Virus record (IMG/VR): IMGVR_UViG_3300027863_001119
Coordinates: 1-64,000 of that record
DNA from: a virus
DNA length: 64,000 nt
Reading direction: 5' to 3' (one strand)
A model generated the notes under the pieces. That model did not search any database and was not told the origin of the DNA. It worked only from the letters and a program-made list of their open reading frames with translations. Positions 13,161 through 28,039 of the stretch are shown piece after piece; the stretch's first letter is position 1; the number at the start of each line of letters is the position of its first letter. The position numbers and the translations under genes were made by a program.

Positions 13161-13198
13161 TACAACAAAAAAAGTTTGAAAAAACTTTTTTTGTTGTA
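13161..13198. promoter_or_regulatory. Perfect 17-bp inverted repeat with GAAA loop (terminator or operator) overlapping a possible sigma70 promoter for the LRR array
   Basis: tacaacaaaaaaagttt-gaaa-aaactttttttgttgta. TTGAAA at 13176 and TATATT at 13200 (18-nt spacer). Confidence 0.55.
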
Positions 13199-13240
13199 TT
13201 ATATTAGTCATTATTGATTTTTTTAAGAGAAAATAATATA

Positions 13241-13387
13241 ATGGAAAAAAAATGCCCTATCATATTTATTTCTTGCAAACCCAATAGAATAAAAAAAATT
13301 CAAAACACACCATCATCCAAACCTCCAAAAAAACTAAATATAATTTTAAACAAAATAAAAATAGAAGGAAAAGCATATGTTAAATAA
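13241..13387 (+). CDS. 48-aa degenerate zero-repeat LRR-array leader unit (N-cap remnant fused to C-cap)
   Basis: MEKKCPIIFISCKPNRIKKIQNTPSSKPPKKLNIILNKIKIEGKAYVK*. Ends in the same stop/ATG overlap as the array genes. Confidence 0.5.
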   Translation: MEKKCPIIFISCKPNRIKKIQNTPSSKPPKKLNIILNKIKIEGKAYVK

Positions 13388-14015
13388 ACTAAGTTTTGAT
13401 AACATATTTATTCCACGTAAAATAGATGAAATAGAAGAAAAAGAAAGAGCAAAAATTCAAAAACTTCTACAACAAGAAATTATAGAAGGAGATTTAGATT
13501 TACAAGGAATTAATTGGATTGAAGATTTAGGAAATGTTAAAGAAGTAAGAGGTAATGTATATTTACAAAACTCTTCCATTAAAAGTTTAGGAAATCTTGA
13601 GAGAGTTGAAGGAGATTTAAGTTTAGAAAACACCCCTATTCAATCTTTAGGAAATCTCAAATATGTTGGAGAAGATTTATATTTACAAGATACTTCTATT
13701 CAATCATTAGGAAGTCTTAAACAAGTGGAGGGAAGTTTATACTTACAAAACTCTCAAATCCAATCATTAGGAAATCTTGAACATGTAAGATGGAACTTAG
13801 ATTTATATAATACCTCTATTCAATCTTTAGGAAATCTTCAATATGTTGGAAGATGGTTAGACTTAAGAAACACTCCTATTCAATCATTAGGAAATCTTTG
13901 TTATGTTGGAAAAGACTTATACTTACGAAATACTCCTTTATCTAAACTTCCAAAAGAAGAATTGGATGAAATTTTAAGCGGAATAGAAATAAAAGGAGAA
14001 ATATATATTGAATAA
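13377..14015 (+). CDS. LRR array gene 1 (212 aa, 8 repeats)
   Basis: N-cap MLNKLSFDNIFIPRK, 20-aa xxLxLxNTPIQSLGNLxxV repeats, C-cap PLSKLPKEEL. Confidence 0.9.
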   Translation: MLNKLSFDNIFIPRKIDEIEEKERAKIQKLLQQEIIEGDLDLQGINWIEDLGNVKEVRGNVYLQNSSIKSLGNLERVEGDLSLENTPIQSLGNLKYVGEDLYLQDTSIQSLGSLKQVEGSLYLQNSQIQSLGNLEHVRWNLDLYNTSIQSLGNLQYVGRWLDLRNTPIQSLGNLCYVGKDLYLRNTPLSKLPKEELDEILSGIEIKGEIYIE

Positions 14016-14823
14016 ATCAAACTTTAACAACATATTTATTCCACGTAAGATAGATGAAATAGAAGAAAAAGAAAAAACGAAAATTCAAAAACTTCTTCAA
14101 CAAGAAGTCATAGAAGGAGATTTAGATTTACATGGAATTGATTGGATTGAAGATTTAGGGAATATTAGAGAAGTAAGAGGGGATTTATACTTATATGATT
14201 CTTCCATTAAAAGTTTAGGAAAACTTGAAAAAGTTAATGGAGGTTTATATTCACACAATACTCCTATTCAATCATTAGGAAATCTTTGTTATGTCAGGAA
14301 AAATCTATGGTTAGAAAACTCTCAAATCCAATCATTAGGAGACCTCGAATATGTTGGACAGTCTTTAGATTTACGTAATACTTCTATTCAGTCTTTAGGA
14401 AAACTTGAGTATGTAGGGGGGAATTTAGATTTAAAAAACTCTCAAATTCAATCCTTAGGAGACCTCGAATATGTCGGTGAGAGTTTATTAGCAGCAAACT
14501 CTCAAATCCAATCTTTAGGAAATCTTGAAAGAGTTGGCAAAGATTTATGGTTAGAAAACACTCCTATTCAATCATTAGGAAATCTTCGTTATGTTGGAGA
14601 AGATTTAGATTTATCGAATACTCTCATTCAATCACTAGAAAATCTTTGTTATGTTGGTAGCTATTTAGATTTACGCAATACTCCTATTCAATCATTAGGA
14701 AATCTCGAGTATGTCAGAGGATGGTTAGACTTACGAAATACCCCATTATCAAAACTTTCAAAAGAAGAACTAAATAAAATTTTAAGTAAAATAGAAATCA
14801 GAGGAGAAGTATATGTTGAATAA
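14008..14823 (+). CDS. LRR array gene 2 (271 aa, 11 repeats; TTG start)
   Basis: The usual ATG is mutated to ATA. The next codon TTG has AGGAG 9 nt upstream. Confidence 0.85.
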   Translation: MNKSNFNNIFIPRKIDEIEEKEKTKIQKLLQQEVIEGDLDLHGIDWIEDLGNIREVRGDLYLYDSSIKSLGKLEKVNGGLYSHNTPIQSLGNLCYVRKNLWLENSQIQSLGDLEYVGQSLDLRNTSIQSLGKLEYVGGNLDLKNSQIQSLGDLEYVGESLLAANSQIQSLGNLERVGKDLWLENTPIQSLGNLRYVGEDLDLSNTLIQSLENLCYVGSYLDLRNTPIQSLGNLEYVRGWLDLRNTPLSKLSKEELNKILSKIEIRGEVYVE

Positions 14824-15391
14824 ACTAAGTTTTGATAATATATTCATTCCACGTAAAATAGATGAAATAGAAGAAAAAGAAAAAACGAGAATTCAAAAGA
14901 TTCTTCAACAAGAAATCATAGAAGGAGATTTAGATTTATATGGAATTAATTGGATTGAAGATTTAGGAAATGTTAAAGAAGTAAGAGGCAGTTTAGATTT
15001 ACACGATTCTTCTATTAAAAGTTTAGGAAATCTTGAAAGGGTTGGAGGTGATTTATGGTTAGAAAATACTCTCGTTCAATCATTAGGAAATCTTCGTTAT
15101 GTTGGAGGGAGTTTAGATTTACGTAATACTTCTATTCAATCATTAGGGAATCTTAAATATGTAGGAGGTCATTTTGATTTACACAATTCTCAAATCCAAT
15201 CATTAGGAAATCTTCGTTATGTTGGAAGCAGTTTATGGTTGAATAATACTCCTATTCAATCATTAGGAAATCTCGAATATGTTGGAAGGAGATTATACTT
15301 ACAAAATACTCCATTATCTAAACTTCCAAAAAAAGAACTAAATAAAATTTTAAGTAAGATAGAAATTGGACAAGAAGTACATGTTAGATAA
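14813..15391 (+). CDS. LRR array gene 3 (192 aa, 7 repeats)
   Basis: Same cap/repeat architecture, 11-nt overlap with previous gene. Confidence 0.9.
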   Translation: MLNKLSFDNIFIPRKIDEIEEKEKTRIQKILQQEIIEGDLDLYGINWIEDLGNVKEVRGSLDLHDSSIKSLGNLERVGGDLWLENTLVQSLGNLRYVGGSLDLRNTSIQSLGNLKYVGGHFDLHNSQIQSLGNLRYVGSSLWLNNTPIQSLGNLEYVGRRLYLQNTPLSKLPKKELNKILSKIEIGQEVHVR

Positions 15392-15959
15392 ACTAAGTTT
15401 TGATAACATATTTATTCCACGTAAACTTGATGAAATAGAAGAAAAAGAAAAAACGAGAATTCAAAAGATTCTTCAACAAGAAATCATAGAAGGAGATTTA
15501 GATTTACGTGGAATTAACTGGATCGAAGATTTAGGAAATATTAGAGAAGTAAAAGGAGATTTATACTTAAATGATTCTTCCATTAAAAGTTTAGGAAATC
15601 TTGAAAAGGTCGAAGGCAGTTTATGGTTAGAAAACACTTCTATTCAATCATTAGGAAATCTTCGTTATGTTGGAGGCAGTTTATGGTTACAAAATACTCC
15701 TATTCAATCATTAGGAAATCTTAAATATGTAGGGCGGAGTTTATACTTACAAAATACTCCTATTCAATCATTAGGAAATCTTGAATATGTTGGAGGTTAT
15801 TTATATTTACAAAATACTCCAATTCAATCATTAGGAAATCTTGAGTATGTTAGAAAAGACTTATACTTACAAAATACTCCTTTATCAAAACTTCCAAAAG
15901 AAGAACTAAATAAAATTTTAAGTAAGATAGAAATTAGAAGAAAAGTATATGTTAAATAA
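15381..15959 (+). CDS. LRR array gene 4 (192 aa, 7 repeats)
   Basis: Start reassigned to conserved ATG 15381 (MLDKLSF). Confidence 0.9.
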   Translation: MLDKLSFDNIFIPRKLDEIEEKEKTRIQKILQQEIIEGDLDLRGINWIEDLGNIREVKGDLYLNDSSIKSLGNLEKVEGSLWLENTSIQSLGNLRYVGGSLWLQNTPIQSLGNLKYVGRSLYLQNTPIQSLGNLEYVGGYLYLQNTPIQSLGNLEYVRKDLYLQNTPLSKLPKEELNKILSKIEIRRKVYVK

Positions 15960-16707
15960 ACTAAGTTTTAACAACATATTCATTCCACGTAAACTTGATG
16001 AAATAGAAGAAAAAGAAAAAACGAGAATTCAAAAGATTCTTCAACAAGAAGTCATAGAAGGAGATTTAGATTTACGCGGAATTAACTGGATCGAAGATTT
16101 AGGAAATGTTAAAGAAGTAAGAGGTAATGTATATTTACAAAACTCTTCCATTAAAAGTTTAGGAAATCTTAAACAAGTTAACGGAGATTTATGGTTAGAA
16201 AACACTCCCATTCAATCATTAGGAAATCTTGAACGAGTTGAAGGTAGTTTAGATTTAGAAAACACTTTTATTCAATCATTAGAAAATCTCGAATATGTTG
16301 GAGGTTATTTAAATTTACGTAACACTTCTATTCAATCATTAGGAAATCTTTATTATATTAGAGGATGGTTAGATTTACGAAACTCTCAAATTCAATCATT
16401 AGGAAATCTTGAACATGTAGGACGTAGTTTATACTTACAAAATACTCCTATTCAATCATTAAGAAATCTTGAGTATATTGGCGAAAGTTTATTTGCATCA
16501 AACACTCCTATTCAATCATTAGGAAATCTTCATTATGTAGGGTGGAATTTAGATTTACAAAACTCTCAAATTCAATCTTTAGGTGATCTTCATTATGTTG
16601 GAAAAAACTTATACTTGCAAAATACCTCATTATCAGAACTTCCAGAAGAAGAATTAAATAGAATCTTAAGTAAGATAGAAATTAGAGGAAAAGTATATGT
16701 TAGATAA
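15949..16707 (+). CDS. LRR array gene 5 (252 aa, 10 repeats)
   Basis: Same architecture. Confidence 0.9.
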   Translation: MLNKLSFNNIFIPRKLDEIEEKEKTRIQKILQQEVIEGDLDLRGINWIEDLGNVKEVRGNVYLQNSSIKSLGNLKQVNGDLWLENTPIQSLGNLERVEGSLDLENTFIQSLENLEYVGGYLNLRNTSIQSLGNLYYIRGWLDLRNSQIQSLGNLEHVGRSLYLQNTPIQSLRNLEYIGESLFASNTPIQSLGNLHYVGWNLDLQNSQIQSLGDLHYVGKNLYLQNTSLSELPEEELNRILSKIEIRGKVYVR

Positions 16708-17395
16708 ACTAAGTTTTGATAACATATTTATTCCACGTAAGATAGATGAAATAGAAGAAAAAGAAAAAATGAGAATTCAAAAACTTCTACGGCCAGAAGT
16801 CGTAGAAGGGGACTTAGATTTACACGAAATTAACTGTATTGAAGATTTAGGAAACATTAGAGAAGTAAAAGGCAATGTATATTTACAAAACTCTTCCATT
16901 AAAAGTTTAGGGAAGCTTGAAAGAGTTGATGGAGATTTATGGTTATACAGTATTCAAATCCAATCTTTAGGAAATCTTCAATATGTGGGACAGTCTTTAT
17001 ATTTACTCAATGTTCCTATTCAGTCATTAGGAAATCTTCAATATGTTGGTGGTTATTTAGATTTACATAATTCTCAAATCCAATCATTAGGAAATCTTTG
17101 TCATGTTGGGGAAGGTTTATGGTTAAAAAACTCTCAAATTCAATCATTAGGAAATCTTAAGTACGTTGGACAGTCTTTAGATTTACAAAACACTCCTATT
17201 CAATCATTAGGAAATCTTCAACACGTTGGAAGATGGCTAGACTTAAGAAACACTCCTATTCAATCTTTAGGAAATCTTCGTTATGTTGGAAAAGACTTAT
17301 ACTTACGAAATACTCCTTTATCAAAACTTCCAGAAGAAGAACTAAATAAAATTTTAAGTAAGATAGAAATCGAAGGAGAAGTATATGTTAAATAA
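16697..17395 (+). CDS. LRR array gene 6 (232 aa, 9 repeats)
   Basis: Same architecture. Confidence 0.9.
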   Translation: MLDKLSFDNIFIPRKIDEIEEKEKMRIQKLLRPEVVEGDLDLHEINCIEDLGNIREVKGNVYLQNSSIKSLGKLERVDGDLWLYSIQIQSLGNLQYVGQSLYLLNVPIQSLGNLQYVGGYLDLHNSQIQSLGNLCHVGEGLWLKNSQIQSLGNLKYVGQSLDLQNTPIQSLGNLQHVGRWLDLRNTPIQSLGNLRYVGKDLYLRNTPLSKLPEEELNKILSKIEIEGEVYVK

Positions 17396-18260
17396 ACCAA
17401 GCTTTAACAACATATTTATCCCTCGTAGAATAGATGAAATAGAAGAAAGAGAAAAAAAGAAAATTCGAAAACTTCTGCAACAAGAAATCATAGAAGGATG
17501 GTTAGATTTATCTAGAATTGACTGGATCGAAGATTTAGGAAACGTTAGAGAAGTAAGAGGTAATTTATACTTACAAGACTCTTCTATTAAACGTTTAGGA
17601 AAGCTTGAAAGAGTAGATGGAGATTTACGCTTAGAAAACTCTCCTATTCAATCATTAGGAAATCTTGAAAGAGTAGATGGAAATTTACATTTAGAAAATT
17701 CTCAAATTCAATCATTAGGAAATCTTGAAAGAGTAGATGGAAATTTACATTTAGAAAATTCTCAAATTCAATCATTAGGAAATCTTAAATATGTAGAGGG
17801 AAGTTTAGATTTAGCAAACACCCCCATTCAATCATTAGGAAATCTTGAACGAGTTGACAGAGATTTATGGTTAGACCATACTTCCATTCAATCCTTGGGA
17901 AATCTTCGTTATGTTGGTGGTTATTTAGATTTACACGATACCCCTATTCAATCATTAGGAAATCTTGAACAAGTTGACGAAGACTTACAGTTAGAAAATT
18001 CTCAAATTCAATCATTAGGAAATCTTCGTTATGTAGGACAATCTTTAGATTTACACAACACTCCTATTCAATCATTAGGAAATCTCCAACAAGTAGGAGG
18101 GAATTTAGATTTACAAAACTCTCAAATTCAATCTTTAGGAAAACTTGAGTATGTTAGAGGATGGATAGACTTAAGAGATACTCCATTATCAAAACTTCCA
18201 AAAGAAGAATTAAATAGAATTTTAAGTAAGATAGAAATAGAAGAGGGGATATATGTATAA
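17385..18260 (+). CDS. LRR array gene 7 (291 aa, 12 repeats)
   Basis: Same architecture, with an exact 60-bp tandem duplication. Confidence 0.9.
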   Translation: MLNKPSFNNIFIPRRIDEIEEREKKKIRKLLQQEIIEGWLDLSRIDWIEDLGNVREVRGNLYLQDSSIKRLGKLERVDGDLRLENSPIQSLGNLERVDGNLHLENSQIQSLGNLERVDGNLHLENSQIQSLGNLKYVEGSLDLANTPIQSLGNLERVDRDLWLDHTSIQSLGNLRYVGGYLDLHDTPIQSLGNLEQVDEDLQLENSQIQSLGNLRYVGQSLDLHNTPIQSLGNLQQVGGNLDLQNSQIQSLGKLEYVRGWIDLRDTPLSKLPKEELNRILSKIEIEEGIYV

Positions 18261-18828
18261 ACTAAGTTTTAACGACATATTTATTCCACGTAGAATAGAT
18301 GAAATAGAAGAAAAAGAAAAAACGAGAATTCAAAAGATTCTTCAACAAGAAGTTGTAGAAGGAAGTTTAGATTTACCCGGAATTAACTGGATCGAAGATT
18401 TAGGAAATATTAGAGAAGTAAGAGGTAATTTATACTTACAAAACTCTTCTATTAAAAGTTTAGGAAAACTAGAGTATGTTGAAAAAAGTTTATGGTTATA
18501 CAATTCTCAAATTCAATCTTTAGGGAATCTTAAAAAAGTTAATGGGGATTTATGGTTATACAATACTCCTATTCAATCATTAGGAAATCTTGAACGAGTT
18601 AATGGGAATCTATGGTTAGACAATTCTCAAATCCAATCATTGGGAAATCTTCAACACGTAGGAGAGAGTTTAGATTTAGAAAACACTCCTATTCAATCAT
18701 TGGGAAAACTTAAGTATGTTGGAGCATGTTTATACTTAAGAAATACTCCATTATCAAAACTTCCAAGAAAAGAACTAAATATAATTTTAAACAAAATAGA
18801 AATTGGTGGAGAAGTATATGTTAGATAA
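18253..18828 (+). CDS. LRR array gene 8 (191 aa, 7 repeats)
   Basis: Same architecture. Junction is shortened by one codon (8-nt overlap). Confidence 0.9.
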   Translation: MYKLSFNDIFIPRRIDEIEEKEKTRIQKILQQEVVEGSLDLPGINWIEDLGNIREVRGNLYLQNSSIKSLGKLEYVEKSLWLYNSQIQSLGNLKKVNGDLWLYNTPIQSLGNLERVNGNLWLDNSQIQSLGNLQHVGESLDLENTPIQSLGKLKYVGACLYLRNTPLSKLPRKELNIILNKIEIGGEVYVR

Positions 18829-19576
18829 ACTAAGCTTTAATGGTATATTCATTCCACGTAAAATAGATGAAATAGAAGAAAAAGAAAAAACGAGAATTCA
18901 AAAACTTCTACAACAAGAAATCATAGAAGGAGATTTAGATTTACAAGGGATTAATCAGATCGAAGATTTAGGAAATGTTAGAGAAGTAAGAGGGAATTTA
19001 GATTTACGAAACTCTTCCATTAAAAGTTTAGAAAATCTTGAGTATATTGGTGAAAGTTTATTAGCCTCAAACACTCCTATTCAATCATTAGGAAATCTTC
19101 GTTATGTTGGAGAAGATTTAAATTTACGCAACACTCCTATTCAATCATTAGAAAAACTTGAACGAGTTGAAGGTAATTTAGATTTAGAAAGCACTCCTAT
19201 TCAATCATTAGGGAATCTTCGTTATGTTGGTGGTTATTTAGATTTACACAACACTCCTATTCAATCATTAGGAAATCTCGAATATGTAGGATCGTGGTTA
19301 GATTTACAAAAAGCTTCTATTCAATCCTTAGGAAATCTTCATTATGTTAGAGGATGGTTAGACCTAAGAGATACTCCTATTCAATCATTAGGAAATCTTG
19401 AACGTATTGGAGAATGGTTAAGTTTACGTAATACTTCTATTCAATCTTTAGGAAATCTTCGTTATGTTGGAAAAGACTTATACTTACGAAACACATCTTT
19501 ATCAAAACTTCCAGAAGAAGAATTAAATAGAATCTTAAGTAAGATAGAAATCGGAGGAGAAGTATATGTTGAATAA
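18818..19576 (+). CDS. LRR array gene 9 (252 aa, 10 repeats)
   Basis: Start reassigned to conserved ATG 18818. Confidence 0.9.
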   Translation: MLDKLSFNGIFIPRKIDEIEEKEKTRIQKLLQQEIIEGDLDLQGINQIEDLGNVREVRGNLDLRNSSIKSLENLEYIGESLLASNTPIQSLGNLRYVGEDLNLRNTPIQSLEKLERVEGNLDLESTPIQSLGNLRYVGGYLDLHNTPIQSLGNLEYVGSWLDLQKASIQSLGNLHYVRGWLDLRDTPIQSLGNLERIGEWLSLRNTSIQSLGNLRYVGKDLYLRNTSLSKLPEEELNRILSKIEIGGEVYVE

Positions 19577-20384
19577 ACTAAGTTTTGATAACATATTTAT
19601 TCCACGTAGAATAGATGAAATAGAAGAAAAAGAAAGAGCAAGAATTCGAAGACTTTTACAACAAGAAGTCGTAGAAGGAAGTTTAGATTTACAAGAAATT
19701 GACTGGATCGAAGATTTAGGAAATGTTAGAGAAGTAAGAGGTAATGTATATTTACAAAACTCTTCTATTAAAAGTTTAGGAAGACTTGAAAAAGTTGAAG
19801 GCAGTTTATTGTTACACAATTCTCAAATTCAATCTTTAGGAAATCTTAAACAAGTTAATGGAGATTTATGGCTATACAATACTCCTATTCAATCATTAGG
19901 AAATCTTAAACAAGTTGGTAATTATTTAGATTTACAAAATACTCCTATTCAATCCTTAGGAAAACTTGAGTGTGTCGGAAAGTCTTTAGATTTACGTAAT
20001 ACTCCTATTCAGTCATTAGGAAATCTTAGATATGTTGGAGAAAACTTATACTTACAAAATACTCCTATTCAATCTTTAGGAAATCTTAAACATGTTGAAG
20101 GAGATTTAGATTTACGCAATACCCCCATCCAATCATTAGGAAATCTCAAATATGTAGGATATAATTTATACTTGCAAAACTCTCAAATTCAATCATTAGG
20201 AAATCTCAGATATGTAGGACTGTCTTTAGATTTACAAAACACTCCTATTCAATCATTAGGAAATCTCGAGTACGTAAGGTGGAGGTTAGACTTACAAAAT
20301 ACTCCATTATCAAAACTTCCAGAAGAAGAATTAAATAGAATCTTAAGTAAGATAGAAATTGGAGGAGAAGTATATGTTGAATAA
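19566..20384 (+). CDS. LRR array gene 10 (272 aa, 11 repeats)
   Basis: Same architecture. Confidence 0.9.
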   Translation: MLNKLSFDNIFIPRRIDEIEEKERARIRRLLQQEVVEGSLDLQEIDWIEDLGNVREVRGNVYLQNSSIKSLGRLEKVEGSLLLHNSQIQSLGNLKQVNGDLWLYNTPIQSLGNLKQVGNYLDLQNTPIQSLGKLECVGKSLDLRNTPIQSLGNLRYVGENLYLQNTPIQSLGNLKHVEGDLDLRNTPIQSLGNLKYVGYNLYLQNSQIQSLGNLRYVGLSLDLQNTPIQSLGNLEYVRWRLDLQNTPLSKLPEEELNRILSKIEIGGEVYVE

Positions 20385-21012
20385 GTTAAGTTTCAATAAC
20401 ATATTCATTCCACGTAGAATAGATGAAATAGAAGAAAAAGAAAAAACGAAAATTCAAAAGATTCTTCAACAAGAAATTATAGAAGGAGATTTAGATTTAC
20501 GTGAAATTAACTGGATTGAAGATTTAGGAAATATTAGAGAAGTAAAAGGTAATGCATATTTACGAAACTCTTCTATTAAAAGTTTAGGAAAACTTGAAAG
20601 AGTTGAAGGAGATTTATGGTTAGACAATTCTCAAATTCAATCCTTAGGAAATCTTCGTTATGTTGGAGGGTGGTTATGTTTACAAAACACTCCTATTCAA
20701 TCATTAGGAAATCTTGAGTATATTGGTGAAAACTTATTACTACAAAACTCTCAAATCCAATCATTAGGAAATCTTCAACACATAGGAGGGAGTTTAGATT
20801 TACGTAATACCTCTATTCAATCTTTAGGAAATCTTCAATATGTAGGGTGGAATTTAGATTTACAAAACTCTCAAATTCAATCATTAGGAAATCTTGAATA
20901 TGTTGGAGGATGGATAGACTTACGAAATAATCCATTATTAGAACTTCCAAAAAAAGAACTAAACAAAATTTTAAGTAAGATAGAAATTGGCGGAGGAGTA
21001 TATGTTGAATAA
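20374..21012 (+). CDS. LRR array gene 11 (212 aa, 8 repeats)
   Basis: Start reassigned to conserved ATG 20374. Confidence 0.9.
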   Translation: MLNKLSFNNIFIPRRIDEIEEKEKTKIQKILQQEIIEGDLDLREINWIEDLGNIREVKGNAYLRNSSIKSLGKLERVEGDLWLDNSQIQSLGNLRYVGGWLCLQNTPIQSLGNLEYIGENLLLQNSQIQSLGNLQHIGGSLDLRNTSIQSLGNLQYVGWNLDLQNSQIQSLGNLEYVGGWIDLRNNPLLELPKKELNKILSKIEIGGGVYVE

Positions 21013-21820
21013 ACTAAGTTTTAATAACATATTTATTCCTCGTAAGATAGATGAAATAGAAGAAAAAGAAAAAACGAGAATTCAACAGATTCTTCAACAA
21101 GAAATCATAGAAGGAGATTTAGATTTACGTAGAATTGACTGGATTGAAGATTTAGGAAATATTAGAGAAGTAAGAGGGAATTTAAATTTAAGTGATTCCC
21201 CCATTAAAAGTTTAAGAAATCTTGAAAGAGTAGATGGAAATTTACATTTAGAAAATTCTCAAATCCAATCATTAGGAAATCTTGAATATGTTGGAAGAAA
21301 TTTATGGATATATAACACTCCTATTCGATCATTAGAAAACCTTGAAAGAGTAGAAGGAGATTTACGTTTAGAAAATTCTCAAATTCAATCATTAGGAAAT
21401 CTTCGTTATGTTGAAGATTATTTAAATTTATATAACACTCCTATTCAATCATTAGGAAATCTTCAATACGTTGGAAAGAGTTTAGATTTAGAAAACACTC
21501 CTATTCAATCTTTAGGAAATCTTCAATATGTTGGAGAAGATTTATATTTACAAAATACTTCTATTCAATCATTAGGAAATCTTGAATATGTCGGAGGTTA
21601 TTTAGATTTACGAAACTCTCAAATCCGATTATTAGGAAATCTTCAACATGTTGGAGGTTATTTAGATTTACACGATTCTCAAATTCAATCTTTAGGAAAA
21701 CTTAAGTATGTCAGAGGATGGATAGACTTAAGAAATACTCCATTATCTAAACTTCCAAAAGAAGAACTAAACAAAATTTTAAGTAAGATAGAAATCGAAG
21801 GAGAAGTATATGTTAAATAA
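21002..21820 (+). CDS. LRR array gene 12 (272 aa, 11 repeats)
   Basis: Start reassigned to conserved ATG 21002. Confidence 0.9.
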   Translation: MLNKLSFNNIFIPRKIDEIEEKEKTRIQQILQQEIIEGDLDLRRIDWIEDLGNIREVRGNLNLSDSPIKSLRNLERVDGNLHLENSQIQSLGNLEYVGRNLWIYNTPIRSLENLERVEGDLRLENSQIQSLGNLRYVEDYLNLYNTPIQSLGNLQYVGKSLDLENTPIQSLGNLQYVGEDLYLQNTSIQSLGNLEYVGGYLDLRNSQIRLLGNLQHVGGYLDLHDSQIQSLGKLKYVRGWIDLRNTPLSKLPKEELNKILSKIEIEGEVYVK

Positions 21821-22583
21821 ACTAAGTTTTGACAACATATTTATTCCACGCAAGATAGATGAAATAGAAGAAAAAGAAAAAATGAGAATTCAAAGACTTT
21901 TACAACAAGAAGTCGTAGAAGGAGACTTAGATTTACATGGAATTAATTGGATTGAAGATTTAGGAAATATTAGAGAAGTAAGAGGAGATTTAGATTTACA
22001 CGGAATTAATTGGATCGAAGATTTAGGAAATATTAGAGAAGTAAGAGGCCATTTATACTTACATGGTTCTTCCATCAAAAGTTTAGGAAAGCTTAAGTAT
22101 GTTGGAAACAGTTTATGGTTACAAAATACCCCTATTCAATCATTAGGAAATCTTGAAAAAGTTGGAGGCAGTTTACGGTTAGAAAACATTCCCATTCAAT
22201 CATTAGGAAATCTTAAATATGTAGGGTGGAGTTTATACTTACAAAACTCTCAAATCCAATCATTAGGAAACCTTGAATATGTTGGAGCAGACTTACATTT
22301 ACAAAACACTCCTATTCAGTCATTAGGAAATCTTCAACATGTAGGAGGAAATTTATGGTTATCCAACACTCCTATTCAATCACTAGGAAATCTTAAACAT
22401 GTAGGAGGAAGTTTAGGTTTATCAGACACTTCCATCCAATCTTTAGGAAATCTTCGTTATGTTGGAAAAAACTTATACTTACAAAACACACTTTTATCTA
22501 AACTTTCGAAAGAAGAACTAAACAAAATTTTAAGTAAAATAGAAATCGGAAAAAGAGTATATGTCAAACAAACTAAGTTTTGA
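21810..22583 (+). CDS. LRR array gene 13 (257 aa; duplicated 21-aa first repeat, 4-aa C-terminal extension)
   Basis: GDLDLHGINWIEDLGNIREVR occurs twice. TAA>CAA at the junction extends the ORF to the next TGA. Confidence 0.9.
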   Translation: MLNKLSFDNIFIPRKIDEIEEKEKMRIQRLLQQEVVEGDLDLHGINWIEDLGNIREVRGDLDLHGINWIEDLGNIREVRGHLYLHGSSIKSLGKLKYVGNSLWLQNTPIQSLGNLEKVGGSLRLENIPIQSLGNLKYVGWSLYLQNSQIQSLGNLEYVGADLHLQNTPIQSLGNLQHVGGNLWLSNTPIQSLGNLKHVGGSLGLSDTSIQSLGNLRYVGKNLYLQNTLLSKLSKEELNKILSKIEIGKRVYVKQTKF

Positions 22584-23091
22584 TAACATATTTATTCCAC
22601 GTAAGATAGATAAAATAGAAGAAAAAGAAAGAATGAGAATTCAAAAGATTCTACAACAAAAAGTCGTAGAAGGAGATTTAGATTTACATGGAATTAATTG
22701 GATTGAAGATTTAGGAAATATTAAAGAAGTAAAAGGAGATTTATACTTACAAAACTCTTCTATTAAAAGTTTAGGAAATCTTGAATATGTTGAGGCAGAC
22801 TTAAATTTACAAAATACTCCTATTCAATCGTTAGGAAATCTTCGCCACGTTGGAGGAGATTTAGATTTACGCAATACTCCTATTCAATCATTAGGAAATC
22901 TTGAATATGTAGGATGGGATTTATTCTTACGCAATACTCCTATTCAATCATTAGGAAATCTTAAGTATGTAGGATGGGATTTATTCTTACAAAACACTCC
23001 TTTATCAAGACTTCCAAAAGAAGAACTAAATATAATTTTAAACAAAATAAAAATTGGAGGAAAAGCATATGTCAAACAAGCTAAGTTTTAA
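22561..23091 (+). CDS. LRR array gene 14 (176 aa, 6 repeats)
   Basis: Same architecture, TAA>CAA extension. Confidence 0.9.
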   Translation: MSNKLSFDNIFIPRKIDKIEEKERMRIQKILQQKVVEGDLDLHGINWIEDLGNIKEVKGDLYLQNSSIKSLGNLEYVEADLNLQNTPIQSLGNLRHVGGDLDLRNTPIQSLGNLEYVGWDLFLRNTPIQSLGNLKYVGWDLFLQNTPLSRLPKEELNIILNKIKIGGKAYVKQAKF

Positions 23092-24820
23092 CAACATATT
23101 TATTCCACGCAAAACAGATGAAATATTAGAAAAAGAAAGAGTAAGAGCTCAAAAACTTTTACAACAAGAAGTTGTAGAAGGAGACTTAAATTTACAAGAA
23201 ACTAATCAGATTGAAGATTTAGGAAATGTTAAAGAAGTAAGAGGTAATGTATATTTACAACACTCTTCTATTCAATCTTTAGGAAATCTTGAAAAAGTCG
23301 AAGGTAGTTTATGGTTACACTATACTTCTATTGAATCATTAGGAAATCTTAAATATATTGGAGGAAATTTATACGCAGAGGATACCCCTATTCAATCATT
23401 AGGAAATCTTGAATATGCTGGAGGAAATTTAGATTTACGTGAAACCTCCATTCAATCTTTAGGAAATCTTAAAGAGGTTTACGGAGATTTATGGTTATCC
23501 GACACTCCTATTCAATCATTAGGAAGACTTGAAAGAGTTGAAGGCAGTTTAAGTTTACAAAGCACCCAAATTCAATCCTTAGGAAATCTTGAATATGTTG
23601 GAGGAAATTTAGATTTATCCGACACTCCTATTCAGTCATTAGGAAATCTCAATTATGTTGGAAAAAACTTATACTTACAAGACACGCCTTTATCCGAACT
23701 TCCAGAAGAAGAACTAAATAAAATTTTAAGTAAAGTAAAAGTAGAAGGAGAAACATATGTACATAAGTTAAACAAACTAAAATTTAACAACCTGCTTATT
23801 ATTCCACAAATAATAGATGGAATAGAAGAAAGAGAAAGAGTTCAAAAACTTTTACAACAAGAAGTTATAGAAGAAGATTTAGATTTACGTGGAATTAACT
23901 GGATTGAAGATTTAGGAAACATTAGAGAAGTAAAAGGTGATGCATATTTACGAAACTCTTCTATTAAAAGTTTAGGAAATCTTCGTTATGTTGGTGGTCA
24001 TTTAGATTTACGTAACACTCCTATTCAATCATTAGGAAACCTTGAGCATATTGGTAAAAGTTTATTAGCATCAAACTCTCAAATTCAATCGTTAGGAAAC
24101 CTTGAACGAATAGAATGGGATTTAGATTTACATAACACTCCTATTCAATCATTAGGAAATCTTGAACGCGTTGGATTAGGCTTAAATTTACAAAACACTC
24201 CTATCCCATCATTAGGAAATCTTCGTTATGTTGGAGGTTATTTAGATTTATATAACACTCCTATTCAATCATTAGAAAATCTTGAGTATATTGGTGGAAG
24301 TTTATATGTAGCAAACACTCAAATTCAATCGTTAGGAAATTTTAAACATATAAAGGGTAGCTTAAATTTATCAAATACTCCTATTCAATCATTAGGAAAT
24401 CTTGAGAGAGTAGAAGAAGATTTATGGTTAGAAAACACTTCTATTCAATCTTTAGGAAATCTTCGTTATGTTGGGAGAGATTTAGATTTACGTAAAACTT
24501 CTATTCAATCATTAGGAAATCTTGAACGAGTTGACAGAGATTTAAATTTACAAAACACTCCTATTCAATCATTAGGAAATCTTGAACGTGTTGGTGGTTA
24601 TTTGAATTTATCAAACACTCCTATTCAATCTTTAGGAAACCTCAAATATGTAGAATGGAATTTATACTTACAAAACTCTCAAATTCAATCATTAGGAAAT
24701 CTTCGTTATGTTGGAGGAGCTTTATACTTAAAAAATACTCCATTATCTAAACTTCCAAGAGAAGAACTAAATAAAATTTTAAGTAAGATAAGAATTAGTA
24801 GAGGAGTATATGTCGAATAA
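23069..24820 (+). CDS. LRR array gene 15: in-frame fusion of two units (9 + 15 repeats, 583 aa)
   Basis: Internal C-cap followed by a second N-cap (ETYVHKLNKLKFNN). Conserved ATG at 23069. Confidence 0.88.
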   Translation: MSNKLSFNNIFIPRKTDEILEKERVRAQKLLQQEVVEGDLNLQETNQIEDLGNVKEVRGNVYLQHSSIQSLGNLEKVEGSLWLHYTSIESLGNLKYIGGNLYAEDTPIQSLGNLEYAGGNLDLRETSIQSLGNLKEVYGDLWLSDTPIQSLGRLERVEGSLSLQSTQIQSLGNLEYVGGNLDLSDTPIQSLGNLNYVGKNLYLQDTPLSELPEEELNKILSKVKVEGETYVHKLNKLKFNNLLIIPQIIDGIEERERVQKLLQQEVIEEDLDLRGINWIEDLGNIREVKGDAYLRNSSIKSLGNLRYVGGHLDLRNTPIQSLGNLEHIGKSLLASNSQIQSLGNLERIEWDLDLHNTPIQSLGNLERVGLGLNLQNTPIPSLGNLRYVGGYLDLYNTPIQSLENLEYIGGSLYVANTQIQSLGNFKHIKGSLNLSNTPIQSLGNLERVEEDLWLENTSIQSLGNLRYVGRDLDLRKTSIQSLGNLERVDRDLNLQNTPIQSLGNLERVGGYLNLSNTPIQSLGNLKYVEWNLYLQNSQIQSLGNLRYVGGALYLKNTPLSKLPREELNKILSKIRISRGVYVE

Positions 24821-25268
24821 ACTAAGCTTTAACAATATATTTATTCCACGTAGAATAGATGAAATAGAAGAAAAAGAAAAAAAGAAAATTCAAAAGATTC
24901 TTCAACAAGAAATCATAGAAGGAGATTTAGATTTACAAAGAATTAATTGGATTGAAGATTTAGGAAATATTAAAGAAGTAAAAGGATATTTATACTTATA
25001 CAATTCTTCTATCAAAAGCTTAGGAAATCTTGAAAGAGTAGAAGGTAGTTTAGATTTAGAAAGTACTCCTATTCAATCTTTAGGAAATCTTCATTATGTT
25101 GGAGGTTATTTATATTTACAAAATACTCCAATTCAATCATTAGGAAATCTTGAGTATGTTAGAAAAGACTTATACTTACAAAATACTCCTTTATCAAAAC
25201 TTCCAAAAAAAGAACTAAATAAAATTTTAAGTAAGATAGAAATTGGTGGAGGGGTATATGTTAAATAA
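24810..25268 (+). CDS. LRR array gene 16 (152 aa, 5 repeats; mosaic of genes 20 and 4)
   Basis: Same architecture, with identical DNA blocks shared with two other genes. Confidence 0.9.
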   Translation: MSNKLSFNNIFIPRRIDEIEEKEKKKIQKILQQEIIEGDLDLQRINWIEDLGNIKEVKGYLYLYNSSIKSLGNLERVEGSLDLESTPIQSLGNLHYVGGYLYLQNTPIQSLGNLEYVRKDLYLQNTPLSKLPKKELNKILSKIEIGGGVYVK

Positions 25269-26076
25269 ACTAAACTTCAACAACATATTTATTCCACGTA
25301 AACTTGATGAAATAGAAGAAAAGGAAAAAACGAGAATTCAAAAACTTCTACAACAAGAAGTAATAGAAGGAGACTTAGATTTACATGGAATTGACTGGAT
25401 CGAAGATTTAGGAAATATTAGAGAAGTAAGAGGAGATTTATACTTATATGATTCTTCTATTCAATCTTTAGGAAAACTCGAACGAGTTGAAGGTAGTTTA
25501 GATTTAGAAAACACTCTTATTCAATCCTTAGGAAATCTCAAATACATTGGAGAAAATTTATGGTCAGAAAAAACACCTATTCAATCATTAGGAAATCTTG
25601 AACGAGTTGAAGGTAGTTTAGATTTAGAAAACACTCCTATTCAATCATTAGGAAAACTTGAAAAAGTTGAAGGTAGTTTAGATTTAGAAAACACTCCTAT
25701 TCAATCATTAGGAAATCTTCGTTATGTTGGCGGTTATTTAGATTTACACAACACTCAAATCCAATCATTAGGAAATCTTGAATATGTTGGATCAGACTTA
25801 AATTTACAAAACTCTCCAATTCAATCTTTAGGAAAACTTAAGCGTGTTAGAGGACGGTTAGACTTAAGAAATACACCTATTCAATCATTAGAAAATCTTG
25901 AACGAGTAGGATGGGATTTAGATTTACGTAATACCCCTATTCAATCCTTAGGAAATCTCAAACGAGTAGGATGGGATTTATTCTTACAAAATACTCCTTT
26001 ATCAAAACTTTCAGAAGAAGAATTAAATAGAATCTTAAGTAGGATAAGAATCATAGGAAAAGTACATGTTAAATAA
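25258..26076 (+). CDS. LRR array gene 17 (272 aa, 11 repeats)
   Basis: Start reassigned to conserved ATG 25258. Confidence 0.9.
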   Translation: MLNKLNFNNIFIPRKLDEIEEKEKTRIQKLLQQEVIEGDLDLHGIDWIEDLGNIREVRGDLYLYDSSIQSLGKLERVEGSLDLENTLIQSLGNLKYIGENLWSEKTPIQSLGNLERVEGSLDLENTPIQSLGKLEKVEGSLDLENTPIQSLGNLRYVGGYLDLHNTQIQSLGNLEYVGSDLNLQNSPIQSLGKLKRVRGRLDLRNTPIQSLENLERVGWDLDLRNTPIQSLGNLKRVGWDLFLQNTPLSKLSEEELNRILSRIRIIGKVHVK

Positions 26077-26716
26077 ACTAAACTTTAACAACATATTCAT
26101 TCCACGTAAGGTAGATGAAATAGAAGAAAAAGAAAAAATGAGAATTCAAAAGATTCTTCAACAAGAAGTTATAGAAGGAGATTTAGATTTACATGGAATT
26201 AACTATATCGAAGATTTAGGAAATATTAGAGAAGTAAAAGGTAATGTATATTTACAAAACTCTTCTATTAAAAGTTTAGAAAAACTTGAGTATGTTGAGG
26301 GTTGTTTAGATTTACACAATACTCTTATTCAATCATTAGGAAATCTTGAGTATATTGGCGAAAGTTTATTCTCATCAAATACTCCTATTCAATCATTAGG
26401 AAATCTTGAATATGTGGGAGGGAGTTTAGATTTAGAAAACACCCCTATTCAATCATTAGGAAATCTTGAATATGTAGGAGGAAATTTATGGTTGCATAAT
26501 ACTCCTATTCAATCCTTAGGAAATCTTTGTTATGTTGAGGGTTATTTAGATTTGTCAAACACTCCTATTCAATCCTTGAGAAACCTTAAATATGTAAAGG
26601 AAAGCTTATACTTGCAAAATACCCCTTTATCAAAACTTCCAAAAAAAGAACTAAATATAATTTTAAACAAAATAGAAATTGAAGGAAAAGCATATGTTAA
26701 ACAAACTAAACTTTAA
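26066..26716 (+). CDS. LRR array gene 18 (216 aa, 8 repeats)
   Basis: Same architecture, TAA>CAA extension. Confidence 0.9.
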   Translation: MLNKLNFNNIFIPRKVDEIEEKEKMRIQKILQQEVIEGDLDLHGINYIEDLGNIREVKGNVYLQNSSIKSLEKLEYVEGCLDLHNTLIQSLGNLEYIGESLFSSNTPIQSLGNLEYVGGSLDLENTPIQSLGNLEYVGGNLWLHNTPIQSLGNLCYVEGYLDLSNTPIQSLRNLKYVKESLYLQNTPLSKLPKKELNIILNKIEIEGKAYVKQTKL

Positions 26717-27452
26717 CAACATATTTATTCCACGCAAGATAGATGAAATAGAAGAAAAAGAAAAAATGAGAATTCAAAAACTTCTACAATCAGAAGTCGT
26801 AGAAGGAAGTTTAGATTTACAAGGAATTGACTGGATCGAAGATTTAGGAAACGTTAGAGAAGTAAAAGGTAGTGTATATTTACAAAACTCTTCTATTAAA
26901 AGTTTAGGAAATCTTCGTTATATTGGTGAAAGTTTATTAGTAGCAAACACTCCTATTCAATCTTTAGGAAATCTTCAATATGTTGATGGAGATTTATATT
27001 TATACGATACTTCTATTCAATCTTTAGGAAAACTTGAACGAGCAGGGCAGTCTTTATACTTATCCAATACTCCCATTCAATCATTAGGAAATCTTTGTTA
27101 TGTTGGGGAAGACTTAGATTTACGTAACACTCCTATTCAATCATTAGGAAATCTTGAACGAGTTGAAGGTAGTTTAGATTTAGAAAACACTCCTATTCAA
27201 TCATTAGGAAATCTTAAGTATGTTGGAAATTATTTAAATTTATCAAACACTCCTATTCAATCTTTAGGAAATCTTGAACAAGTAGGATGGAGTTTAAATT
27301 TAGAAAACTCTCAAATCCAATCTTTAGGAAAACTTGAGTATGTTGGAGGAGATTTATTCTTACAAAACACTCCGTTATCTAAACTTCCGAGAGAAGAACG
27401 AAATAAAATTTTAAGTAAGATAGAAATAAGAGAGGAAGTACATGTTAAATAA
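26694..27452 (+). CDS. LRR array gene 19 (252 aa, 10 repeats)
   Basis: Start reassigned to conserved ATG 26694. Confidence 0.9.
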   Translation: MLNKLNFNNIFIPRKIDEIEEKEKMRIQKLLQSEVVEGSLDLQGIDWIEDLGNVREVKGSVYLQNSSIKSLGNLRYIGESLLVANTPIQSLGNLQYVDGDLYLYDTSIQSLGKLERAGQSLYLSNTPIQSLGNLCYVGEDLDLRNTPIQSLGNLERVEGSLDLENTPIQSLGNLKYVGNYLNLSNTPIQSLGNLEQVGWSLNLENSQIQSLGKLEYVGGDLFLQNTPLSKLPREERNKILSKIEIREEVHVK

Positions 27453-28020
27453 ACTAAACTTTAACAACATATTTATTCCACGTAAACTTAATGAAATAGA
27501 AGAAAAGGAAAAAACGAAAATTCAAAAACTTCTACAACAAGAAATCATAGAAGGAGATTTAGATTTACGTGGAATTAACTGGATTGAAGATTTAGGAAAT
27601 ATTAAAGAAGTAAAAGGATATTTATACTTATACAATTCTTCTATCAAAAGCTTAGGAAATCTTGAAAGAGTAGAAGGTAGTTTAGATTTAGAAAGTACTC
27701 CTATTCAATCTTTAGGAAATCTTCATTATGTTGGAGGTAGTTTATGGTTGCAAAATACTCCTATTCAATCATTAGGTAATCTTAAAAGAGTCGAAGGAAG
27801 TTTAAACTTACGTGATACCTTTATTCAATCTTTAGGAAATCTTGAATATGTAGGATGGGATTTATTCTTACGCGATACCCCCATTCAATCCTTAGGAAAC
27901 CTTGAATATGTAGGATGGGATTTATTCTTACAAAACACTCCTTTATCAAAACTTTCGGAAGAAGAACTAAATAAAATTTTAAGTAAAGTAGAAATCAGAG
28001 GAAGAGTATATGTTGAATAA
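27442..28020 (+). CDS. LRR array gene 20 (192 aa, 7 repeats)
   Basis: Same architecture. Confidence 0.9.
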   Translation: MLNKLNFNNIFIPRKLNEIEEKEKTKIQKLLQQEIIEGDLDLRGINWIEDLGNIKEVKGYLYLYNSSIKSLGNLERVEGSLDLESTPIQSLGNLHYVGGSLWLQNTPIQSLGNLKRVEGSLNLRDTFIQSLGNLEYVGWDLFLRDTPIQSLGNLEYVGWDLFLQNTPLSKLSEEELNKILSKVEIRGRVYVE

Positions 28021-28039
28021 ACTAAGCTTTAACAACTAA
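28010..28039 (+). pseudogene. Truncated N-cap stub of a further LRR unit (MLNKLSFNN*)
   Basis: ATG TTG AAT AAA CTA AGC TTT AAC AAC TAA in the standard overlap position. Homology stops here. Confidence 0.75.

What the first reader, a model, noticed from the sequence alone, without database searches (positions are those of the whole stretch)
24810..25268. Gene 16 is an exact mosaic of genes 20 and 4: direct evidence of cassette shuffling
24948-25106 matches 27580-27738 (gene 20) base for base over 159 bp by my reading. 25095-25208 matches 15786-15899 (gene 4) over 114 bp. The two blocks overlap in 12 bp (tatgttggaggt, YVGG). The matching genes lie on opposite sides of gene 16, about 2.6 and 9.3 kb away. 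This favours recent gene conversion or repeated unequal exchange over simple duplication. The direction of transfer cannot be told from one sequence.
Basis: seen in the sequence. Interest (0 to 1): 0.78.

Follow-up and report, generated by a model that had tools for sequence, protein, structure and literature searches.

The report
Recombinant LRR gene in phage array
One gene in a phage's row of twenty look-alike binding-protein genes recently had its middle overwritten with exact copies of pieces of two sister genes, an ordinary recombination footprint showing that the family still exchanges parts.

Summary
24948-25106 equals 27580-27738 (159/159) and 25095-25208 equals 15786-15899 (114/114), overlapping in 12 nt. 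These are the two longest exact matches in the 14.8-kb array; the next are 81 and 80 nt. In my repeat frame, 3 of 11,026 LRR-unit pairs are identical, and they are gene 16's three units. Informative sites split 22:0 for gene 20, then 0:22 for gene 4.

Only the 261-nt core is mosaic. The caps differ from both partners (17/138 and 7/60 mismatches). Contigs from two hot-spring metagenome runs end exactly at the block edges, and both blocks have about twice single-copy depth. A plain assembly chimera is therefore unlikely, but the junction words themselves were not shown.

Best reading: recent homologous gene conversion with two donors, joined two repeats out of register. It made the shortest gene of the array. 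Gene 16 is probably the recipient. The phage encodes RecA and no reverse transcriptase was found.

"Cassette shuffling" overstates this: all 20 genes are intact and coupled, and I saw one clear recent inter-gene event.

This scan has already reported recombining LRR arrays in other large phages. I class it as a new member of a known kind.

The parts
13377..28020 (+). Array of 20 head-to-tail genes for small LRR proteins (152-583 aa). Each start codon overlaps the previous stop by 8, 11 or 23 nt.
   Evidence: ORF list and translations; junctions; all 42 matches to the gene 20 protein in the 133-kb record lie here; period-60 repeats
24810..25268 (+). Gene 16, 152 aa. It is the shortest member, with 3 full 20-aa LRR units against 4-24 in the others. 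Predicted to be a well-formed LRR solenoid.
   Evidence: AlphaFold2 mean pLDDT 90.4, pTM 0.81; VIA-align Z 8-12.4 to LRR proteins
24948..25106 (+). Block A: end of N-cap plus LRR units 1-2, identical to gene 20.
   Evidence: 159/159; 22 of 22 informative sites side with gene 20; a 150-nt contig at 24957-25106 has about 2x depth in two runs
25095..25208 (+). Block B: last 12 nt of unit 2, unit 3 and the start of the C-cap, identical to gene 4's units 4(end)-5 and C-cap start. This is two units out of register.
   Evidence: 114/114; 22 of 22 informative sites side with gene 4; a 114-nt contig at exactly 25095-25208 has about 2x depth in two runs
25095..25106 (+). Crossover interval: a 12-nt perfect match (YVGG codons) shared by both donors.
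   Evidence: 5 copies in the window, all at unit ends, in genes 4, 5, 15, 16 and 20; the donors are 101/132 identical around it when aligned two units out of register
27442..28020 (+). Gene 20 (192 aa), partner for block A (27580-27738) and probable donor.
   Evidence: outside gene 16, its block-A region is closest to its sister gene 4 (137/159), as is the rest of gene 20
15381..15959 (+). Gene 4 (192 aa), partner for block B (15786-15899). It is 85.8% identical to gene 20 in register.
24810..24947 (+). Gene 16's own N-cap. It is not copied from gene 20 or gene 4.
   Evidence: 121/138 to gene 20 and 122/138 to gene 4; the best is gene 3 at 127/138; 11 sites are unique to gene 16
25209..25268 (+). 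Gene 16's own C-cap end and its overlap with the gene 17 start. The 50-nt exact match 25197-25246 = 15320-15369 (gene 3) is at the background level for caps.

Best explanation
Gene 16 sits in a phage's 20-gene tandem family of small leucine-rich-repeat proteins. Its repeat core (24948-25208) was recently overwritten by homologous, non-reciprocal recombination that used two sister genes as templates. The 5' tract was copied from gene 20 and the 3' tract from gene 4. The switch fell in a 12-nt perfect match (YVGG codons) at a repeat boundary, two repeat units out of register. This kept the reading frame and the 20-aa period but left only three full units, the fewest in the array. The gene's own diverged N- and C-caps were kept.

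Shown: the identities, the site pattern, the two-copy depth of both blocks, the intact frame, and a confident LRR model.

Inferred: the process was either one repair event with a template switch or two successive conversions, the later overwriting part of the earlier. Gene 16 is the recipient. The phage's own RecA, or a host recombinase, carried it out.
For: Both blocks are exact. They are the two longest exact matches in the array, with extrapolated expectations of 0.04 and 0.0004.

Gene 16's LRR part is 100% covered by exact matches of 40 nt or more, against 0-58% in the other 19 genes. In the repeat frame I used, 3 of 11,026 unit pairs are 60/60 identical. All three are gene 16's units. The next best pair is 57/60 and the mean is 71.5%.

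Informative sites: block A 22:0 for gene 20, block B 0:22 for gene 4. The flanks are mixed (5:6 and 2:4) and carry 11 + 5 changes unique to gene 16. The flanks of block B are at background identity, so there was no segmental duplication.

In two metagenome runs, contigs of 150 and 114 nt end exactly at 25106 and start exactly at 25095. Their depths are 141.8 and 152.7 against 66-84 for neighbours in X1, and 340 and 359.8 against 136-194 in X2. The odd 'joint' and loose end in that output are paralogue sequences from genes 7 and 3/4.

Polarity: gene 20's block-A region keeps its sister relation to gene 4 (137/159, the best after gene 16), like the rest of gene 20 (233/282 after A). Abutting tracts are automatic if one gene was overwritten twice, but a coincidence if gene 16 donated to two genes.

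A full-length RecA lies at G000:C1:94338-95123 (424.8 bits). No reverse transcriptase was found in the 133 kb.

The product folds as a continuous solenoid in the model (pLDDT 90.4).
Against: The 18 junction-specific 31-mers (25077-25124) were not among the listed contig pieces; 391 rows were not shown. The A-to-B join in reads is therefore inferred from branch points, not seen.

By my own reasoning, a second threading of the repeat graph (swapping contexts at both A and B) would also use every piece once. It would attach other caps to the same core. Only the original assembler's read pairs decide between the two.

Block B cannot be polarised. In that region gene 4 is not closest to its sister gene 20 (89/114, near the bottom of 19 genes), which could also mean B is foreign to gene 4. 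The margin for block A is small (137 vs 134, 133).

No close relative of the phage could be fetched, so there is no outgroup. A 12-nt perfect match is short for RecA-type exchange. That RecA acts here is an assumption.
Confidence: 0.7

Rival explanations
1. Same recombination, opposite direction. Gene 16 is the source, and two separate conversions exported its 5' part into gene 20 and its 3' part into gene 4.
For: One sequence cannot formally polarise a conversion. In the block-B region gene 4 loses its sister relation to gene 20 (89/114, while gene 1 scores 98/114), as expected if B were foreign to gene 4.
Against: Two independent exports would have to end and start within the same 12 nt and together cover exactly gene 16's LRR core. 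Gene 20's block-A region still looks native, closest to sister gene 4. The drop in the B region is equally explained by gene 20's 3' end resembling gene 14: exact matches of 43 and 42 nt link genes 14 and 20.
Confidence: 0.13
2. Assembly artefact. Gene 16, or its A-B join, does not exist in any phage genome and was created by mis-assembly of near-identical repeats or of mixed strains.
For: The record comes from a metagenome. Blocks of 159 and 114 nt exceed common assembler word sizes. The junction words were not displayed. The second contig carrying the exact gene 16 protein may be the same assembly filed twice.
Against: The two partners share only 12 nt at the join, too little for any word-based assembler to bridge (inference). 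In two runs, independently built contigs stop at 25106 and start at 25095, which needs a second continuation and a second predecessor in the reads. Both blocks have 1.8-2.0 times the single-copy depth, not 1x or 1.5x. No variant letters or gaps were listed inside 24810-25268.
Confidence: 0.05
3. Programmed diversification. The array is a cassette library, and gene 16 is a site where new binders are assembled at high frequency by a dedicated mechanism, in the manner of lamprey VLR assembly or Borrelia vlsE (both recalled, not read here).
For: There are many variable LRR genes with constant caps. The product is a segmental, out-of-register, two-donor mosaic. Hypervariable codons 1, 3, 5, 16, 17, 19 and 20 sit around a near-invariant framework. 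The phage has its own RecA.
Against: All 20 genes are intact, with their own start codon overlapping the previous gene's stop, so no copy is a silent cassette. No reverse transcriptase was found. Both runs give the same contigs, with no variant listed in gene 16 (contigs drop rare variants). Outside gene 16 no LRR unit in my frame has a twin above 57/60. Cap distances show no structure (Mantel r 0.15, -0.07, -0.15 and 0.07; permutation values 0.19, 0.65, 0.97 and 0.20).
Confidence: 0.05
4. Exchange between co-infecting related phages. The tracts came from the gene 20 and gene 4 orthologues of another genome, not from the same molecule.
For: Phage recombination often happens between co-infecting or concatemeric genomes (general knowledge). 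It cannot be told apart from intramolecular conversion using one sequence.
Against: The tracts are identical to this genome's own genes at all 261 positions, so any outside donor must have been essentially the same phage. No relative was found.
Confidence: 0.07

Closest known systems
Tandem LRR protein locus of Flavobacterium psychrophilum (Altae-Tran et al. 2020, PMC10392669; passages read)
   Same: Up to 19 tandem genes for LRR proteins with 2-14 internal repeats. Hypervariable positions lie on one face. Nucleotide-level signatures of extensive recombination, with differences between strains.
   Different: That locus is bacterial. Its proteins carry a secretion signal and a type 9 secretion signal. 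It is littered with broken gene fragments joined at 1-5 bp microhomologies, read there as illegitimate recombination. Here the setting is a phage. There are no signal peptides by eye, no fragments and no intergenic DNA. The one clear junction is an in-frame 12-nt match inside homeologous repeats.
Staphylococcus aureus lpl tandem paralogue cluster (Tsuru and Kobayashi 2008, PMC2568036; abstract and outline read)
   Same: Tandem paralogues whose halves are reshuffled by homologous recombination at a conserved internal sequence, giving genes whose 5' and 3' parts have different histories.
   Different: In lpl, the 3' part of one ORF and the 5' part of the next travel together. I tested for that here and found no such signal (C-cap against next N-cap, r = -0.07, permutation value 0.65). 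In gene 16 the caps stayed and the middle was replaced.
Segmental gene conversion in antigenic-variation and VLR systems (lamprey VLR, Borrelia vlsE, trypanosome mosaic VSGs; recalled, not read here)
   Same: Multi-donor, short-tract, often out-of-register copying into one LRR or surface-protein gene, with the donors left unchanged.
   Different: Those systems have one expression site and silent, incomplete donors, and they run at high frequency. Here every copy is a complete gene whose start codon overlaps the previous stop, and only one fresh inter-gene event is visible.
Modular shuffling in hyperplastic regions of T4-type phages via PeSL cassettes (Arbiol et al. 2010, PMC2839356; search listing and start of abstract only)
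   Same: Recombination at short conserved sequences reshapes accessory gene blocks in large myoviruses.
   Different: There, whole genes are swapped at intergenic promoter-terminator motifs. Here the exchange is inside coding repeats of paralogues, and the array has no intergenic DNA.

Membership tests
Leucine-rich-repeat (LRR) solenoid proteins | Tandem repeats of about 20-30 residues with an LxxLxLxxN-type core | tested here: met
   149 units at a strict 20-aa spacing. Columns L2, L4, N6, I9, L12 and L15 are near-invariant. TRF finds period 60 throughout.
Leucine-rich-repeat (LRR) solenoid proteins | Solenoid fold with one strand per repeat, similar to solved LRR domains | tested here: met
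   The gene 16 model has mean pLDDT 90.4 and short strands recurring every 20 residues. VIA-align best rows: Z 12.4 (8z5u_0, rmsd 2.5, 121 aligned), 11.9 (Leptospira LIC11098, 3.0, 128) and 10.7 (internalin A, 3.2, 122). Most of the 50 rows are titled LRR proteins. Foldseek gave 0 matches at E <= 0.001, best 5.7e-3, also an LRR protein. This rests on a predicted model only.
Leucine-rich-repeat (LRR) solenoid proteins | Match to a curated LRR profile above its threshold | tested here: inconclusive
   LRR_4 scores 21.9 bits (cut-off 27) and LRR_EndoS 18-22.8 bits (cut-off 27.9), both below threshold. Recep_L_domain scores 29.5-33.3 bits (cut-off 21.8), above threshold. This was tested on 3 of 20 genes. 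No PHROG family matched gene 16.
Gene conversion between tandem paralogues | Identical tract bounded by diverged flanks, with the partner genes left intact | tested here: met
   0 differences in 261 nt, against 17/138 and 7/60 in the flanks. Genes 4 and 20 are intact.
Gene conversion between tandem paralogues | Site pattern along the gene switches between parents | tested here: met
   22:0 then 0:22 informative sites.
Gene conversion between tandem paralogues | No duplication or deletion of the genes between the partners, which excludes a simple unequal crossover | tested here: met
   The neighbours of gene 16 are not copies of the neighbours of genes 4 or 20. C-cap and next N-cap are at background identity.
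Gene conversion between tandem paralogues | Known donor and recipient | tested here: inconclusive
   Block A weakly points to gene 20 as donor. Block B is ambiguous. No outgroup strain was available.
Programmed cassette systems (VLR / vls / pilS type) | One expression site plus silent or incomplete donor cassettes | tested here: not met
   There are 20 complete ORFs, each with its own start codon overlapping the previous stop.
Programmed cassette systems (VLR / vls / pilS type) | Population heterogeneity at the assembled gene | tested here: inconclusive
   No variant was listed in 24810-25268 in two runs, but these are contigs, which drop rare variants.
Diversity-generating retroelement | Reverse transcriptase plus a template/variable repeat pair differing at adenines | tested here: not met
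   No RVT_1 match in the 133-kb record, which is estimated 74% complete. The repeats are exact, not adenine-mutated.

The most novel reading that the evidence does not exclude
The phage keeps its 20 LRR genes as a self-recombining binder library. RecA-driven, multi-template, out-of-register conversion between copies continually makes new repeat combinations and lengths, which selection on host binding then sorts. Gene 16 would be the newest product. This would be a viral, germline counterpart of combinatorial LRR receptor assembly, running at a rate high enough to matter within a single hot-spring population.
Probability: 0.12. Interest if true: 0.75.

Novelty: new member of a known kind. Interest (0 to 1): 0.4.

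Why it matters
Gene 16 is a clean, datable footprint. It has zero changes in 261 nt, in a family whose units otherwise differ by 5% or more. This shows that a large phage's tandem LRR family is not a frozen set of old duplicates. It can still make new repeat combinations and new repeat numbers in a single in-frame step.

If these proteins bind host structures, such events would change what the phage can bind. Their position next to tail genes and their variable strand face suggest this, but it is untested. The mechanism itself is ordinary. The value lies in a concrete junction that raw reads, long reads or a time series from the same spring could use to measure how often such exchanges happen.

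Tried and rejected
**Outgroup for polarity.**
- Viral contigs with the gene 20 protein and with the tail-sheath protein gave no relative.
- Metagenome contigs with the gene 16 protein gave one distant locus, L009, at 46% identity.
- Genome contigs with the gene 4 protein gave none.
- P0075 and P0028 in viral contigs gave none.
- The phages collection gave no megablast match.
- The direction of transfer therefore rests on internal evidence only.

**Co-evolution of caps.** I tested whether C-caps co-evolve with the next gene's N-cap, as in S. aureus lpl, or whether caps of nearby genes are more alike. No Mantel test was significant. Gene 15 was left out because it is a two-unit fusion.

**Clustering of crossovers at one motif.** There is only one fresh internal junction. 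The ends of the 74 exact matches of 40 nt or more scatter over many codon phases, and 42 of the 74 lie in the caps. The test was not informative.

**Longer 387-nt, 92.5% match** from gene 4/5 to gene 16/17. Outside block B it is at cap background identity, so I rejected it as a larger tract.

**The 46- and 50-nt exact matches in gene 16's caps** to genes 8, 4 and 3 are ordinary for caps. Genes 3 and 4 have 83% and 97% N-cap coverage.

**Host clue from RecA.** The best 80 loci are 62-68% identical and come from many phyla. This gave no clue.

**Promoter scan.** It found fewer sites than shuffled sequence (49 vs 77) and was uninformative.

**Read cover.** The junction words and part of the stretch were not among the listed pieces. 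I draw nothing from the holes.

**Literature.** Searches found no paper on tandem LRR gene arrays recombining in a phage. They cover only the held open-access library, and supplements were closed.
Full report
**What is there.** The window is the first 64 kb of a 133,380-nt IMG/VR virus record, classed linear and estimated 74% complete. All long ORFs lie on the + strand and G+C is about 29%. The ORF at 11680-13134 matches a tail-sheath PHROG (E 1.9e-26), and neighbouring ORFs match tail and tail-fibre families.

From 13377 to 28020 there are 20 head-to-tail genes for small proteins of 152-583 aa. Each has a conserved N-cap, a run of strict 20-aa repeats and a conserved C-cap. Each start codon overlaps the previous stop by 8, 11 or 23 nt. 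All 42 matches to the gene 20 protein in the whole record lie in this array. Gene 16 (24810-25268, 152 aa) is the shortest, with three full units against 4-24 in the others.

**The observation.** Both claimed blocks are exact: 159/159 and 114/114. They overlap in the 12 nt TATGTTGGAGGT. The partner genes lie 2.6 and 9.3 kb away on either side.

**Is it more than chance?** A frame-free map of all exact matches in 13241-28039 lists 2,843 of 20 nt or more. Of these, 74 are >=40 nt, 9 are >=60, 4 are >=80 and 2 are >=90. The two longest are the blocks in question.
- A log-linear fit to the 25-75 nt tail expects 0.04 matches >=114 nt and 0.0004 >=159 nt. The fit is rough.
- Cut into 149 units of 60 nt, the array has 11,026 unit pairs with mean identity 71.5%. 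Only 3 are 60/60, and these are exactly gene 16's three units, two with gene 20 and one with gene 4. The next best pair is 57/60.
- That count depends on my frame. In another frame gene 7's internal 81-nt repeat would also give an identical pair.
- Gene 16's LRR part is 100% covered by exact matches of 40 nt or more. In the other 19 genes the figure is 0-58%.

**Site pattern.** I used gene 20 and gene 4 as putative parents, anchored at the 5' end for the left part and at the 3' end for the right part.
- Block A has 22 informative sites, all siding with gene 20.
- The rest of block B has 22, all siding with gene 4.
- The 138 nt before A split 5:6 and carry 11 changes unique to gene 16.
- The 60 nt after B split 2:4 and carry 5 unique changes.

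So only the 261-nt core is a mosaic, and the caps are gene 16's own. N-caps across the array are 74-92% identical to gene 16's, so the 46-50 nt exact matches there are background. The 387-nt, 92.5% BLAST match running from gene 4 into gene 5 is background outside block B: 53/60 and 150/165, within the range of the other junctions. No larger segment was duplicated, which rules out a simple unequal crossover.

**Assembly check.** Two hot-spring metagenome runs (X1, X2; two samples, two studies) hold the stretch as Logan contigs.
- In both, one contig of exactly 150 nt lies at 24957-25106 and one of exactly 114 nt lies at 25095-25208.
- The start at 24957 is what a 31-letter word graph predicts (my inference), because 24940-24986 is also shared with gene 14.
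- A contig can only stop at 25106 and start at 25095 if the reads hold two continuations after A and two predecessors before B.
- Depths are 141.8 and 152.7 against 66.5-84.5 for six single-copy neighbours in X1. In X2 they are 340 and 359.8 against 136-194. That is 1.8-2.0 times, so there are two copies of each block per genome.
- No variant letter or indel is listed inside gene 16.
- The one 'joint' (24544 to 25699) and the loose end at 25246 are the sequences of gene 7 and of the gene 3/4 junction.

Limits of this check:
- The junction-specific words (25077-25124) were not among the listed pieces.
- One of the runs may be the source of the record.
- By my reasoning, a second threading that swaps contexts at both blocks would also use every piece once. 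It would keep the same A-B core but give it gene 20's N-cap and gene 4's C-cap.
- The exact gene 16 protein is on record on 2 contigs of one source, which may be the same assembly.

**Direction.** Genes 4 and 20 are sisters, 85.8% identical in register over 579 nt.
- In the block-A region gene 20's best match after gene 16 is gene 4 (137/159; next are 134 and 133). After A it is again gene 4 (233/282, against 209 and 204 for the other five-unit genes). Block A therefore looks native to gene 20.
- Block B gives no answer. There gene 4 is closest to gene 1 (98/114) and far from gene 20 (89/114). Gene 20's 3' end has exact 42-43 nt matches to gene 14, which may explain this.
- The stronger argument is geometric. 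Two tracts that abut within 12 nt and together replace the whole LRR core are automatic if one gene was overwritten, either once with a template switch or twice in succession. They are a coincidence if that gene donated to two others.
- I put gene 16 as recipient at roughly 5 to 1.

**Mechanism.** Aligned two units out of register, the donors are 101/132 identical around the join, with perfect runs of 15, 14, 12, 12 and 11 nt. The 12-mer occurs five times in the window, always at a unit end. The exchange is therefore homeologous recombination between repeat units. It is in frame, and it removes two units relative to the 192-aa parents.

The record encodes a full-length RecA (424.8 bits, G000:C1:94338-95123) and has no RVT_1 match. 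That RecA did this is an inference.

The product is predicted to fold as an unbroken solenoid: mean pLDDT 90.4, pTM 0.81, residues 1-14 disordered, helix 16-31, then strands every 20 residues. VIA-align places it among LRR proteins at Z 8-12.4. Foldseek alone found nothing at E <= 0.001. Pfam gives Recep_L_domain above threshold and LRR models below threshold.

**Is it 'cassette shuffling'?** Only in a loose sense. Every gene is complete and overlaps the previous gene's stop, so none is a silent cassette.

The other LRR-region exact matches of 60 nt or more are few:
- an 81-nt match at a 60-nt offset inside gene 7, which is a fresh one-unit duplication;
- an 80-nt match between genes 17 and 19;
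- a 78-nt match between genes 1 and 5 that runs from the N-cap into the first unit.

Cap distances show no structure. Exact-match ends do not cluster at one motif. Both runs show the same contigs. The array thus recombines occasionally, and gene 16 is the youngest and largest visible product.

**Relatives and literature.**
- The family is common in metagenomes: 178 proteins at E <= 1e-5 among 297 candidates.
- It is also common in viral contigs: 48 loci at 34-57% identity. By a motif count, 21 of the 48 hold two or more such ORFs and 9 hold three to six in tandem.
- Among 10 of those arrays, two have exact matches of 127 and 134 nt between paralogues. In L049 these lie at gene-length offsets, as expected of plain recent duplicates.
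- The closest described systems are the F. psychrophilum tandem LRR locus (PMC10392669, passages read) and the S. aureus lpl cluster (PMC2568036, abstract read).
- A Goslar phage preprint assigns LRR/beta-helix domains to putative host-recognition proteins (passages read).
- My three searches found no paper on recombining LRR arrays in phages.
- This scan has already reported such arrays in at least seven other large phages, two of them from hot-spring mats. The phenomenon is therefore not new to the scan.

**Verdict.** Recent two-donor gene conversion is the best reading. An assembly chimera is unlikely but not formally excluded. Programmed shuffling is not supported.

Noticed in passing
outside the window: G000:C1:94338-95123 (+), locus L010: The virus record encodes a full-length bacterial-type RecA (424.8 bits over all 262 profile positions, in a 356-aa open frame). 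The best 80 genome matches are only 62-68% identical and come from many phyla.
   Followed up: partly
window 17646-17786 (gene 7): An 81-nt exact match at a 60-nt offset marks a very recent tandem duplication of one LRR unit inside gene 7. It is the third-longest exact match in the array.
   Followed up: partly
window 25576-25655 and 27132-27211 (genes 17 and 19): An 80-nt exact match lies between units 3-4 of gene 17 and units 5-6 of gene 19, again out of register. It is a possible older or shorter exchange.
   Followed up: no
window 21920-22063 (gene 13): A 63-nt tandem duplication (2.3 copies, 91% matches) repeats the end of the N-cap (DLDLHGINWIEDLGNIREVRG twice).
   Followed up: no
window 23069-24820 (gene 15): This single 583-aa ORF holds two complete cap-repeat-cap units, with a second N-cap starting near 23768. 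It is a fused pair of array members.
   Followed up: no
window 27807-27931 (gene 20): Two adjacent units are 90% identical (TRF period 60, 2.1 copies). This looks like a fairly recent unit duplication inside the probable donor gene.
   Followed up: no
window 13161-13198: A 17-pair hairpin followed by a T-rich tail lies just after the tail-sheath gene. Promoter-like hexamers at 13176-13242 lie just before the array. No + strand terminator-like site was found inside the array, which fits one transcription unit.
   Followed up: no
loci L028 (3-3870), L049 (9866-13134), L033, L036, L038: Other IMG/VR viral contigs carry 4-6 tandem genes of the same small LRR family, with overlapping stops and starts. 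Several arrays sit at contig ends, as if assemblies break there. L049's neighbouring genes share exact matches of up to 127 nt.
   Followed up: partly
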